Shown here: piece by piece, positions 4,268-63,506 of the stretch
Position numbering within the stretch: the first letter of the stretch is position 1
Layout of the letters: each line of letters starts with the position of its first letter
Origin: Octopus vulgaris
Taxonomy: Eukaryota
NCBI GenBank assembly: GCA_951406725.2
Contig: OX597814.1
Location: forward strand, 29,574,001 to 29,638,000
Reading direction: 5' to 3'
Length of the DNA: 64,000 nucleotides
The notes under the pieces: model-generated
Told to the model about the DNA's origin: nothing
Databases searched by the model: none
Seen by the model: the letters and a program-made list of their open reading frames with translations, nothing else
Made by a program: the position numbers and the translations under genes

Positions 4268-4845
4268 CCCTTTTGTTACCAACTCGGCTGAAACCGGTCC
4301 TGGCTCTGTAGTACAAATGTCTTGTTTGCATTTGTTTTGAATTAAGATCTTCCACCAAACCTTAGTCACAATTTATATTCCTAACACTACCTGAATGATA
4401 ACTAAGTTATTTTACTAAATTCTTTGTTATATTTAAAGCTATTGAAAGAAACACAGAGCATCTCAAAATAAATACAGTAATGGAGCACCATCCGATCGTG
4501 GCCGTTGCCAGCGCCGCCCCGACTGGCCTTGTGCCGGTGGCACGTAAAATGCACCATCCGTTCGTGGCTGTTGCCAGCCTCGCCTGGCCCCCGTGCCGGT
4601 GGCACATGAAAAACACCAATCCGATCGTGGCCGTTTGCCAGACTCGTCTGGCACCTGTGCTGGTGGCACGTGAAAGGCACCCACTACACTCACGGAGTGG
4701 TTGGCATTAGGAAGGGCATCCAGCCGTAGAAACACTGCCAGATCAGACTGGGCCTGATGCAGCCTTCTGGCTTCCCAGACCCCAGTTGAACCGTCCAACC
4801 CATGCTAGCATGGAAAGAGGACGCTAAACGATGATGATGAAAGGG
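4268..4845 (+). mobile_element. Second piggyBac-type MITE family, interrupted in its 3' TIR by an RTE tail
   Basis: Starts CCCTTTTGTTACC (the same TIR as the 46178 element) and ends AAAGGG-TTAA at 4845-4849; 4481-4840 is an inserted repeat. Confidence 0.7.
4481..4840 (+). mobile_element. Family C repeat (5'-truncated RTE 3' UTR with ~62-bp tandem units)
   Basis: Three internal units, then ggcattaggaagggcatccagccgtagaaac...ggacgctaaac(GAT)n. Confidence 0.8.
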
Positions 4846-7779: not shown

Positions 7780-8128
7780 TATCATCATCATTTAGCGTCC
7801 GCTTTCCATGCTAGCATGGGTTGGACGGTTCAACTGGGGTCTGTGAAGCCAGAAGGCTGCATCAGGCCCAGTCTGATCTGGCAGTGTTTCTACGGCTGGA
7901 TGCCCTTCCTAACGCCAACCACTCCGTGAGTGTAGTGGGTGCTTTTTACGTGCCACCCGCACAGGTGCCAGACGGAGCTGGCAAACGGCCACGGACGGAG
8001 CTGGCAAACGGCCACGGACGGATGGTGCTTTTTACGTGCCACCAGCACGGGGCCAGGCGAGGCTGGCAACGGCCACGAACGGATGGTGCTTTTTACGTAC
8101 CACCAGCACGAGGCCAGTCGGGGCGGCG
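7780..8128 (-). mobile_element. Family C repeat
   Basis: Reverse copy with an extra 23-bp internal duplication (ACGGAGCTGGCAAACGGCCACGG twice). Confidence 0.8.
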
Positions 8129-15500: not shown

Positions 15501-15593
15501 AGTAACTAAGGCTAGATGGTTGACAAAAAAAAAAAAAAAAGATAGTGCTGATGATGTCAAAATAAGACTGAAACATGTCCTCCAGATTTGTCT

Positions 15594-45145: not shown

Positions 45146-45502
45146 ATCATCATCATCATCATTTAGCGTCCGTTTTCCATGCTAGCATGGGTTGGACGGT
45201 TCAACTGGGGTCTGTGAAGCCGGAAGGCTGCATCAGGCCCAGTCAGATCTGGCAGTGTTTCTACAGCTGGATGCCCTTCCTAATGCCAACCACTCCGTGA
45301 GTGTAGTGGGTGCTTTTTACATGCCACCCGCACAGGTGCCAGGCGGAGTTGGCAAACGGCCACGAACGGATGGTGCTTTTACATGCCACCGGCACGGGGG
45401 CCAGGCAAGACTGGCAACGGACACGAACGGATGGTGCTTTTACGTGCCACCGGCACGGGGGCCAGGCGAGGCTGGCAACGAACACGAGCGGATGGTGCTT
45501 TT
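45146..45502 (-). mobile_element. Family C repeat
   Basis: Reverse copy with three tandem units. Confidence 0.8.
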
Positions 45503-45507
45503 AATAA

Positions 45508-59248: not shown

Positions 59249-59657
59249 CATCATCATCATCGTTTAGCATCCGCTTTCCATGCTAGTATGGGTTGGACGG
59301 TTCAACTGGGGTCTGTGAAGCCAGAAAGCTGCATCAGGCCCAGTCTGATCTGGCAGTGTTTCTACGGCTGGATGCCCTTCCTAACGCCAACCAGTCCGTG
59401 AGTGTAGTGGGTGCTTTTACGTGCCACCCGCAGAGGTGCCAGACGGAGCTGGCAAACAGATACGGACGGATGGTGCTTTTTACGTGCCACCGGCACAGGG
59501 GCCAGGCGAGGCTGGCAACAGCCACGATCAGATGGTGCTTTTTACGTGCCACTGGCACAGGGGCCAGGCGAGGCTGGCAACGGCCACGATCGGATGGTGC
59601 TTTTTACGTGCCACCGGCACGGGGGCCATGGAAAGACTGGCAACGGCCACGAACGGA
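59244..59657 (-). mobile_element. Family C repeat with four tandem units
   Basis: GATGGTGCTTTTTACGTGCC starts at 59469, 59531 and 59593 (62-bp period). Confidence 0.82.
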
Positions 59658-60354
59658 TGATGATGATGATGATGATATATATATATATATATATATATAT
59701 GCTGCTGTTGTTGTTGCTGTTGATAATTTATGTTGCATTGGTACTTTAGTAATAACTGTAAGATCATCAACTTCATTAAAATGTATTGTATCAGTCATCC
59801 ATTTTGTTTACTTTATATCTATCTTTCTTTCCACCATTATCATTTGCAGTTTGGGAAATAAAAAAAAGAGAGCAAATAATGATAAACTGTTTAATAACAA
59901 AGAAGCCAGTCAGATTGACCTTCATCCCAAGCTACTGAAACAGCCCTAATTAACAGATGAACTAAATACATACAGAAAACAGTTTATTTATGTTTTAATT
60001 GCACGAAAGTCTTATTCTTAATATAACCATTACACATCGCCTTATTCAAGAGGTTTTGTCCAGAAAGTTAACTTGATGACCTCGCTGGTGCTGTGTAAAA
60101 AGCATTGAGTACACTCAGTAAAGTGATTGGCGTTAGAAAGAATATCCAGCTGTAGAAACTATGCCAAAGCAAACACTGGAGCTTGGCACAATCTTCTGGC
60201 TCATCAGCTCCTGTCAAACCATCCAACTCAAGCAGCTGGGAAAATGAACATTAAATGATGATGATGATGACCATTAGACTATTTTACTGTTCATTACTCA
60301 TCAATTACAGAAGGATGAAGTGCAAGGTCACCCCCTCCCCTCAATAGAACTTAA

Positions 60355-61542: not shown

Positions 61543-61714
61543 CTTTCATCAATTTTTTATGGATTTTGGCCCATGCATTTCGATTTTCTGAAGTTAAAAT
61601 TCCAACAGGTGAAGTAGAATGCTTTGATTCAGACTTGATAGTCTTCAGTTGTTTGTATATTTGCTCAGCATTCAGAGGTTTGTTTTTCTTGCCAAATACT
61701 TGCAGGGAAAATAA
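61543..61714 (-). CDS. CRAT: Carnitine O-acetyltransferase, most 5' exon visible in window (172 nt)
   Basis: aattttctag|TTA...AAAG|gtattt. Translates LFSLQVFGKKNKPLNAEQIYKQLKTIKSESKHSTSPVGILTSENRNAWAKIHKKLMK, with the PVGILTS..R..WAK motif. Phase 1 end joins the 53279 exon. Confidence 0.94.
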
Positions 61715-62131
61715 CTAGAAAATTATCAACACAAGATAAATCAAATAAAATGACAAAAAAAAAAAATCTTTTTTTTTTTTCCCAATTTTCCTGTAATTAA
61801 TACTAAAAGTAAATATATTTTAGAAGACAATATTTTCTGTGGTTTACAGTTAGAATTGTTTCCATAGCAGATAAGCTTTTGGTAAGCTGAATGGATAAAT
61901 CTACATTTTAACAAGTAAAAAGAATGTTGTGCATTTGAGTAAAAATCTTATAAATCTATGTATTTCAGTTGAGACCCAACTGTGAGGGTAAGATACCATG
62001 TAATTTGCAATAGATCACTATCTTATTCTCTCTTTTGTTTAGCATTATAAAATCAGAGCTAAACATCAGTGACTTTTTTAAAAAAATCTTCAAAGCTGAG
62101 GATAATATTGATATTTCTTAAAGCCATTTAA

Positions 62132-62352: not shown

Positions 62353-62494
62353 TTAAACAATATTTGGATCAACATTCCAATTATGGCCACCCTGTCCTTT
62401 GTCTTGCTCATTATACCCAAAACTACTTTATATACTTTAATCCTTTTGTTTTGTTTTATTTAATTTTGGAAATAATGAAGAATTTACTAAAATG

Positions 62495-63129
62495 GAAATA
62501 TTAAAATTTCTAAGTCTCTCTGAAGGAGACTACGGCAGCGGTACTGGATATTAATAGTTATCGCCATGCTAATATGGTACTCCATAAATATAAGACTAAA
62601 GCTGCCGCTGATTAGCTCCAAGAGGCCATCGCCTCTAGCTAGTTATAAATGGACACAGGTTCATGTGTCATATAGCTAGCTAGAGGTGATGGCCTCTTGG
62701 AGCTAATCAACGGCAGCTTTAGTCTTATATTTATGGACTACCATATTAGCTTGGCGATAACTATTAATATCCAGTACCGCTGCCGTAGTCTCCTTTAGAG
62801 AGACTTAGAAATTTTTATATTCCTTTTTTTGAAAACCAGTGGATGTATTCTACTGAAATTAGGTAAATAATCCTTCGAACAGACGGTTAGTAGCGACGCC
62901 TGCTGGATCTGGCTACTCTGCATTGATAAAGGGCAAATACCCTGAAACATGTCTGCAGATGTCTGACCAGCAAGGGGAAGCAGCTGACCTCCCCTGTTCG
63001 AAGGTTATAATGGACACAGGTTCGTGTGTCATATAGCTAGCTAGAGGTGATGGCCTCTTGGAGCTAATCAGCGACAGCTTTAGTCTTATATTTATGGACT
63101 ACCATATTAGCTTGGCGATAACTATTAAT
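62495..63129 (+). mobile_element. Penelope-like / retrozyme-like non-coding retroelement insertion (direct plus inverted repeat)
   Basis: Flanked by a 13-bp duplication ATTTACTAAAATG (62482-62494, 63130-63142). 62495-62647 is the inverted copy of 62671-62822. Sequence from 62651 recurs at 63012 (361-bp period). Contains a hammerhead motif. Confidence 0.8.
62917..62959 (+). ncRNA. Minimal type I hammerhead ribozyme (U3-A8 core variant)
   Basis: UCUGCA [UUGAUAA] AGGG caaaua CCCU [GAAA] CAUG UC UGCAGA: 6-bp stem I, 4-bp stem II, palindromic stem III (ACAUGU), GUC cleavage triplet at 62951-62953. Confidence 0.75.
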
Positions 63130-63506
63130 ATTTACTAAAATGATTTTGTCAATATTAAACTGGTATTTGGAACATAAATTAACACAGTTAAAAATGCTTG
63201 GTGAAATGTGAAGATTTGACAGCAATTTCCAGCAAATTGAATGACTGCAAAGAGGCTCCTTCAGTAGTAATCCTTAAAAACTTAGATTTGTTTTGTTTGT
63301 GCTTTTTTTATTTTTTTGTTTTTTTTATTTTTCATGAGATAGATTGTAAGAAATTTAACTACTTATATTTATTTTTGAACGTATGATCTTAAATAATTTC
63401 TAACAGTATGAATGATCAACTTTCCTGTCAGATGATTAAGTGAATGAATAGAATTTTCATGAGTCAAATGTATCCATCAATTGGTGATTAATCCAGCTCC
63501 TCTCTT

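What the first reader, a model, noticed from the sequence alone, without database searches (positions are those of the whole stretch)
62495..63129. Hammerhead-ribozyme-bearing retroelement (Penelope pLTR / retrozyme-like) with a U3-A8 core
Seen in sequence: a 635-bp insertion bounded by a perfect 13-bp duplication (ATTTACTAAAATG), with no protein ORF. It holds about 1.3 copies of a 361-bp unit plus an inverted 5' copy. The unit contains UCUGCA-UUGAUAA-AGGG(caaaua)CCCU-GAAA-CAUG-UC-UGCAGA. Established: minimal type I hammerheads with a palindromic, dimer-forming stem III are typical of Penelope-like element pLTRs and metazoan non-LTR retrozymes, and C3-G8 is a tertiary Watson-Crick pair. Both positions are changed here (U3, A8), which keeps the pair and suggests selection rather than decay. 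Inference: a young non-autonomous element whose tandem transcripts self-cleave into ~361-nt monomers, possibly circular, and are mobilised by a PLE reverse transcriptase. The ribozyme is antisense to the host CRAT pre-mRNA.
Basis: partly seen in the sequence, partly recalled or inferred. Interest (0 to 1): 0.85.

Follow-up and report, generated by a model that had tools for sequence, protein, structure and literature searches.

The report
Dispersed hammerhead retrozyme with U3-A8 core
This intron holds one of over a thousand genomic copies of a small protein-free mobile element that carries a hammerhead-ribozyme motif with an already described U-A swap in its core; it is likely a self-cutting RNA that is likely copied into the genome by a Penelope-type enzyme starting at two fixed sites, so it is a new member of a known class with one unusually clean mechanistic clue.

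Summary
In detail: a 635-bp insertion, a 13-bp duplication, a 361-bp unit and a type I hammerhead with U3-A8, lying antisense in an intron of a CRAT-like gene. It belongs to a dispersed family (1107 exact hits to one 33-nt pattern) within a larger group of ~355-365-nt elements (1221 core hits: 811 C3-G8, 323 U3-A8, 87 mismatched). U3-A8 is one inherited switch on the tree. It is kept in 46 of 47 copies picked outside the ribozyme, and stems, the stem III palindrome and other helices of the unit covary. The ribozyme has the canonical retrozyme form, not the minimal pLTR form, and no copy examined joins an ORF. Insertions show Penelope hallmarks: microsatellite targets, 8-15-bp TSDs, inverted arms and two 3' ends about 55 nt apart. 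Copies run through the cleavage site (61 of 66), so the template is a circle or an uncut multimer. Retrozymes and natural U3-A8 cores are both published. The new detail: in 52 of 55 two-armed insertions one arm uses the short end and the other the long end. Cleavage, circles and the helper enzyme are untested.

The parts
62482..62494 (.). Left copy of the 13-bp target-site duplication
   Evidence: D4, 100%
62495..62647 (-). Inverted arm: unit positions about 21-174 read on the minus strand; its outer end is the family's 'long' 3' end (unit ~174-177); no ribozyme in it
62642..62650 (.). Head-to-head junction of the two arms with a short TATA-type microhomology; last bases of the preceding unit
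   Evidence: sequence
62651..63011 (+). One full 361-nt unit, multi-hairpin fold, helices covary with sister families
62911..62963 (+). Canonical-type type I hammerhead: extended stem I with UAC bulge (62914-62916), helix I 62917-62922/62954-62959, U3 62923, A8 62928, helix II 62930-62933/62940-62943, GAAA 62944-62947, palindrome ACAUGU 62947-62952, predicted cut after C17 62953, U1.7 62960
63012..63131 (+). Partial second unit (positions 1-120) ending at the family's 'short' 3' end; last 2 nt shared with the TSD
63130..63142 (.). Right copy of the target-site duplication
61544..61726 (-). Nearest downstream coding exon of the host carnitine acyltransferase (CRAT-like) gene; the insertion lies in the intron upstream of it

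Best explanation
This is one insertion of a dispersed, protein-free ~361-nt repeat family with a conserved hammerhead motif and Penelope-type insertion anatomy, and it is likely a non-LTR retrozyme whose RNA is likely cut by paired ribozymes, likely ligated into a circle, and likely copied into AT-rich DNA by a borrowed Neptune-type Penelope reverse transcriptase/endonuclease. Steps. (1, inferred) Tandem copies are transcribed; two hammerheads pair through the ACAUGU palindrome and cut after GUC; monomers are ligated. (2, shown in DNA) Copies end at two fixed points of the unit, ~120 and ~175, far from the cut site, and run on through the cut site, some for more than one unit. (3, inferred) The enzyme nicks both target strands 8-15 bp apart and primes one cDNA from each strand on the same RNA, one at each start site. 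If both cDNAs grow, they join head to head by microhomology, as here; if one aborts, a single arm with either end remains. (4, shown) U3-A8 replaced C3-G8 once in this lineage and was kept through later subfamilies. In this locus the single ribozyme is antisense to the host pre-mRNA, so it would not cut it.
For: Copy number: 1975 first-look candidates; 1107 exact hits to a 33-nt pattern outside the ribozyme, control 0. Core constraint in copies not picked by the ribozyme: 46 of 47 arms U3+A8 (1 gapped); 0 of 14 core columns polymorphic vs 50 of 204 others, Fisher p = 0.023, columns not independent. Covariation on 26 distinct sequences: 91% of cells paired, 13 of 17 pairs with a two-sided change, pair 3-8 = 16 CG + 10 UA, palindrome centre UA/AU/CG; 0 of 500 shuffles reach it, slid controls 25-50% paired. 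Whole unit: 25 of 59 predicted pairs with a two-sided change in 10 copies. Dimer active fold -29.6 vs -24.4 kcal/mol for two open monomers. Ends: single-armed 22 long/20 short/3 other and 17/15/4; two-armed 29 of 30 and 23 of 25 classifiable cases pair long with short. Arms of one insertion share a rare variant in 9 of 49 pairs vs 100 of 6222 same-subfamily pairs from different loci. 61 of 66 arms pass the cut site; 17 of 94 exceed 365 nt. Microsatellite flank in 77 of 118 vs 20 of 118 at 300 nt away; TSD >= 8 bp in 25 of 41 non-microsatellite cases vs 5 of 91 controls. Neptune-like PLEs with RT + GIY-YIG, two 3' ends and (TA)n flanks exist in G000. Literature: two internal RT start sites and extension of both strands by a PLE protein (PMC11167929); circles and dimer cleavage for animal retrozymes (PMC7229834).
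Against: No RNA evidence for cleavage or circles was obtained. The pair at the base of helix II is A-U, not the usual G-C, and 9 of 26 sequences are unpaired there. The predicted minimum-energy monomer pairs G5-A6-U7 with the cleavage strand, and the best cofold (-30.7) is an inactive duplex, slightly below the active dimer. 8 of 9 Xenopus retrozyme dimers did not cleave in vitro (preprint 10.64898/2026.07.22.740005). In the one PLE tested in vitro, uncut RNA was the main template and the ribozyme was dispensable. Natural 2-3-unit tandems (L055/L125, L213, L237) could supply linear templates as long as any arm seen. The U-A/C-G covariation is one event on the tree. No PLE pLTR similar to the unit was found in 66 PLE-bearing loci. 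Three two-armed insertions break the long/short rule (L028, L193, L206) and 15 had one unclassifiable end. Tandem copies within an arm shared rare variants in only 2 of 21 pairs. Shared variants between arms could come from gene conversion.
Confidence: 0.6

Rival explanations
1. Same family and same borrowed enzyme, but the template is an uncut linear read-through transcript of a 2-3-unit tandem copy; the ribozyme is slow or acts at another step and circles are not the intermediate.
For: 61 of 66 arms cross the cut site with no pile-up there. Tandems of 2-3 units exist. For Poseidon_Ac, ribozyme mutants insert normally and no reads end at the cut site (PMC11167929).
Against: The core, the palindrome and the peripheral stems are kept across lineages about 0.5 changes per column apart, so cutting likely matters to propagation. 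Most insertions are shorter than one unit (median 333 bp), yet full units and tandems keep being made.
Confidence: 0.27
2. The unit is the pLTR of an autonomous Penelope-like element not yet found, and these copies are its 5'-truncated remains.
For: Tail, inverted arm, TSD size and (TA)n targets are PLE hallmarks (PMC8557442; PMC3846280). 24 of 57 Xenopus retrozyme families match annotated TEs, 21 of the 22 being PLEs.
Against: Long copies continue into another unit, never into an ORF: no PLE ORF joined to the unit in 60 loci or in 30 loci of the wider group. One pair of copies 3.2 kb apart is a local duplication (L217). The ribozyme is canonical, whereas the pLTRs seen here carry minimal forms.
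Confidence: 0.09
3. The hammerhead is a dead or chance motif carried passively in a SINE-like repeat; U3 and A8 are two decay mutations.
For: No Rfam hit; A10.1-U11.1; no activity data; a single switch on the tree.
Against: Only 87 of 1221 cores are mismatched at 3-8; stems and palindrome covary; core columns are invariant where a quarter of other columns vary.
Confidence: 0.04

Closest known systems
Metazoan non-LTR retrozymes (Cervera and de la Pena 2020, PMC7229834; results section parts 1-2 and passages read)
   Same: Canonical type I hammerhead in a ~350-390-bp, <45% GC, ORF-less unit; TSDs longer than 4 bp; strongly self-paired fold; short palindromic helix III as in the axolotl families; PLEs with minimal hammerheads in the same genome.
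   Different: Mostly dispersed, truncated and inverted copies, longest seen about 3 units, against arrays of up to 62 units in coral; U3-A8 core; expression and circles not shown here.
Animal retrozymes as non-autonomous PLE derivatives (bioRxiv 10.64898/2026.07.22.740005; parts 1-3 of 5 read, supplements closed)
   Same: Same conclusion on the mobiliser; monomers dispersed, few repeat units in most families.
   Different: There many families match a pLTR by sequence; here no matching pLTR was found, and the link rests on insertion anatomy. The parts read do not analyse ends or tails.
Neptune/Poseidon Penelope-like elements: pLTR, tail, inverted 5' copy (PMC8557442 and PMC3846280 passages; PMC11167929 main text read)
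   Same: Two 3' ends, inverted arm, tail on one end only, AT-rich/(TA)n targets, 8-15-bp TSD.
   Different: No ORF; tail 54-57 nt rather than 30-40; canonical rather than minimal ribozyme. The in vitro study saw no start-site difference between strands, whereas insertions here pair one start site with the other.
Natural U3-A8 hammerheads (PMC3088659 section 8; Schistosoma PLE min-HHRs, about 1,300 hits, PMC4209133 parts 1-2)
   Same: Same compensatory swap of the 3-8 tertiary pair; reported active in vitro in earlier work cited by PMC3088659.
   Different: Here it sits in a canonical retrozyme scaffold with C3-G8 sister families in the same genome.

Membership tests
Non-LTR retrozyme | Canonical type I hammerhead (6-bp helix I, 4-bp helix II, short palindromic helix III) | tested here: met
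   definition from PMC4209133
Non-LTR retrozyme | Repeat unit of 150-450 bp, GC under 45-50%, no ORF | tested here: met
   361 bp, GC 0.41-0.42, longest ATG-ORF 51 aa
Non-LTR retrozyme | Tandem copies with at least two ribozymes (the preprint's 'active' criterion) | tested here: inconclusive
   This insertion has one ribozyme; family members L055/L125, L126, L213 have two in tandem. No long array seen; not searched exhaustively.
Non-LTR retrozyme | TSD longer than 4 bp | tested here: met
   13 bp here; 8-15 bp in 25 of 41 non-microsatellite insertions
Non-LTR retrozyme | Highly self-paired monomer | tested here: met
   circular-fold z = -5.7, -8.2, -8.3 for three units; covariation
Non-LTR retrozyme | Self-cleavage and accumulation as circular RNA | not testable with these tools
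   only contigs of runs not on record as RNA were available
Autonomous PLE / pLTR | RT + GIY-YIG ORF joined to the repeat | tested here: not met
Autonomous PLE / pLTR | Minimal hammerhead (helix II 7-8 bp, helix I 4-5 bp, poorly defined loop 1) | tested here: not met
   helix I 6 bp plus conserved extension, helix II 4 bp
PLE-mobilised sequence | Two 3' ends (tail), inverted 5' arm, microsatellite/AT-rich targets | tested here: met
Rfam hammerhead families | Match to a hammerhead covariance model | tested here: not met
   no hit at E <= 10; none for loci including a C3-G8 sister at E <= 1, so the models miss this scaffold

The most novel reading that the evidence does not exclude
A dimeric Penelope enzyme engages one circular retrozyme RNA at two start sites about 55 nt apart and hands one site to each nicked target strand. 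That would explain the tail, the head-to-head inverted repeats and the partial tandems of Penelope-like elements in one step, and this 361-nt RNA would be a minimal substrate to prove it. The Neptune-like family of L073, whose long end shares ATATTTCTA and whose tail is about 49 nt, would be the helper.
Probability: 0.35. Interest if true: 0.65.

Novelty: new member of a known kind. Interest (0 to 1): 0.4.

Why it matters
How Penelope-like elements build their tandem and inverted insertions is named as an open question (PMC8557442), and the link between retrozymes and PLE enzymes rests so far on co-occurrence and sequence likeness. This family gives direct anatomical evidence for PLE-type copying of a retrozyme and a countable rule (one long end, one short end per two-armed insertion) that an in vitro system like that of PMC11167929 could test. 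Sister families with C3-G8 and U3-A8 in one scaffold also give a natural comparison of the 3-8 pair. For the host gene this copy is probably a neutral intronic passenger.

Tried and rejected
Rfam: no hammerhead hit. Expression: no RNA holder listed; runs laid were contigs with 'RNA?' guesses, so nothing is concluded on transcription or circles. Search for a parent PLE: flank-against-flank comparison of 30 loci, ORF scans, tblastn with two PLE proteins, and a profile of the unit over 66 PLE-bearing loci gave only separate nearby insertions (L061, L124, L125, L175, L258). The GIY-YIG fragment beside L007 belongs to another element. Two copies 3.2 kb apart (L217) are a local duplication; hammerheads 3.1 kb apart in L121 lie on opposite strands with no PLE ORF found. 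A B-box-like word near 62998 was considered as a Pol III promoter and set aside because the sister family changes it while keeping the stem. Heterodimers with the PLE's own ACAUGU hammerhead were set aside because helix I does not match (by eye). One search used a faulty reference and was redone; one search crashed and was redone. Lunse et al. 2017 (PMC5785218) is not held and may list further core variants. Searches of earlier scan findings returned nothing. Paper searches for retrozyme + cephalopod and hammerhead + octopus/cephalopod showed no description of this family; the library lacks most subscription papers, Repbase and Dfam were not available, and bioRxiv supplements are closed.

Full report
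Observation. The described features are in the sequence. A 13-nt direct repeat bounds the insertion at 62482-62494 and 63130-63142; a 123-nt repeat recurs at 361-bp spacing; a 165-nt arm is inverted. The insertion is 635 bp, GC 0.41, with no ATG-ORF over 51 aa. It lies between two minus-strand Carn_acyltransf exons, one at window 61544-61726 and one beyond the window; another exon of the gene best matches carnitine acetyltransferase. The ribozyme is on the plus strand, so it is antisense to the pre-mRNA. G000 is a 2.8-Gb animal assembly; my guess that the host is a cephalopod is recall from size and repeat make-up and comes from no call.

Family. A 141-bp query gave 1975 first-look candidates, 40 scored. 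A 34-nt core pattern with positions 3 and 8 free had 180 exact hits, control 0; of the 100 listed, 98 were U3-A8, one A3/A8, one U3/G8 (by eye). A 33-nt pattern outside the ribozyme had 1107 hits. Among 49 ribozyme-covering copies there are two subfamilies; the second changes the outer pair of helix I from U-A to G-C. A broader pattern found 1221 cores: 323 U3-A8, 811 C3-G8, 87 mismatched by subtraction. The C3-G8 relatives are collinear ~355-bp units with the same hairpins. On a tree of 28 copies with positions 3 and 8 masked, the label changes once (support 97/94; four of the 30 loci were left out as duplicates or odd, two subfamily-2 copies added). The counts are therefore one inherited double change, not hundreds of events.

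Is the ribozyme under constraint? In arms picked by the outside pattern, 46 of 47 carry U3+A8; 0 of 14 core columns are polymorphic against 50 of 204 others (p = 0.023). On 26 distinct sequences that I chose across families, 91% of cells pair, 13 of 17 pairs show two-sided changes, and the centre of the helix III palindrome switches among UA, AU and CG; no shuffle of 500 reached this, and slid structures pair 25-50% (related sequences inflate such tests). The form is canonical by the definition in PMC4209133: 6-bp helix I, 4-bp helix II, short palindromic helix III. A UAC bulge and U1.7 are conserved; that these and loop CAAAUA match the Schistosoma tertiary contact is recalled, not checked (one search did not settle it). 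The dimer active fold scores -29.6 kcal/mol against -24.4 for two open monomers, but an inactive duplex scores -30.7. The pair at the base of helix II is weak in this group (9 of 26 unpaired). Helices outside the ribozyme also covary: 25 of 59 predicted pairs in 10 full units, mostly between the two clades.

How copies were made. 3' ends fall at two points of the unit, ~120 (short) and ~175 (long). Single-armed insertions use them equally (22 long, 20 short, 3 other; 17, 15, 4). Two-armed, head-to-head insertions pair one of each: 29 of 30 in loci picked by the ribozyme (9 more had one unclassifiable end; includes sister families) and 23 of 25 in an independent set picked outside it (6 unclassifiable). 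The window's copy is such a case: long end at 62495, short end at 63131. Arms of one insertion are nearly always close relatives and share a rare variant in 9 of 49 pairs against 100 of 6222 same-subfamily pairs (pairs are not all independent and conversion is possible). Flanks are microsatellites in 77 of 118 insertions (20 of 118 at 300 nt), and 25 of the 41 others have 8-15-bp TSDs (5 of 91 controls). Going upstream, 61 of 66 arms that reach the cut site pass it, with no excess of stops; 17 of 94 arms exceed 365 nt. The copied RNA is therefore continuous across the cut site: a circle or an uncut multimer.

Helper. G000 holds Neptune-like PLEs with RT and GIY-YIG, including many intact 781-aa ORFs. 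Both families examined have two 3' ends and (TA)n flanks. The 781-aa family's pLTR carries a minimal hammerhead that also has U3-A8. The L073 family's long end shares ATATTTCTA with the retrozyme's long end and has a tail of about 49 nt. Neither pLTR resembles the unit otherwise, and no copy examined joins an ORF. The helper is not identified.

Comparison with what is known. Unit size, GC, TSD and ribozyme fit metazoan non-LTR retrozymes, which are expressed as circles and, with a short helix III, cleave as dimers (PMC7229834). A 2026 preprint argues that they derive from PLEs; 1 of its 9 dimers cleaved. Natural U3-A8 cores are reported in PMC3088659 and in about 1,300 Schistosoma PLE-type motifs (PMC4209133). 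Tails on one end and inverted arms are PLE hallmarks. A purified PLE protein starts at two internal sites, extends both strands, is predicted to be a dimer and does not need ribozyme cleavage (PMC11167929). I did not see the strict long/short pairing quantified in the papers returned, though 'tail at only one end' states it in words.

Verdict. A real, constrained retrozyme-type element and a new member of a known kind. The headline U3-A8 change is published. The best explanation (circle copied by a PLE enzyme from two start sites) gets 0.6; a linear uncut template gets 0.27. Interest 0.4, mainly for the end-pairing rule.

Noticed in passing
L257-L260 and L163-L186 (G000, many copies): Young Neptune-like PLE family with intact 781-aa RT-GIY-YIG ORF and an upstream ORF of about 479 aa; its pLTR holds a minimal hammerhead with U3-A8 and the ACAUGU palindrome.
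   Followed up: partly
L061-L090, about 150-180 nt after the ORF stop: A second Neptune-like family has a hammerhead-like motif with core AUGAAUA (A3-U8) and a palindromic helix III in the 11 copies a regex caught among 30 loci (10 with that core), but G12 is mostly absent, so it may be degenerate.
   Followed up: partly
window 15548-15579 (+): A separate C3-G8 minimal-type hammerhead core, one of 351 hits of a generic pattern in G000.
   Followed up: no
window 62495-62835: The 165-bp inverted repeat would form a long double-stranded hairpin in the host intron on either strand; a possible A-to-I editing substrate.
   Followed up: no
window about 62460-62494 and 63130-63184: The target site is itself part of an AT-rich dispersed repeat; many contigs of public runs carry related empty sites.
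   Followed up: no
unit positions ~342-348 (window ~62992-62998): 12 of 86 arms stop within a 10-nt bin just inside the base of the long hairpin that encloses the ribozyme, about twice the usual rate; possibly an RT pause or an alignment effect.
   Followed up: no
L124:6102-6674 (-): GIY-YIG-like ORF of a different PLE type (looks like the Hydra clade by recall; no Pfam hit).
   Followed up: no
window 4486-4675, 8000-8124, 45309-45503, 59410-59659: A 61-64-bp tandem unit recurs at four places in the window.
   Followed up: no
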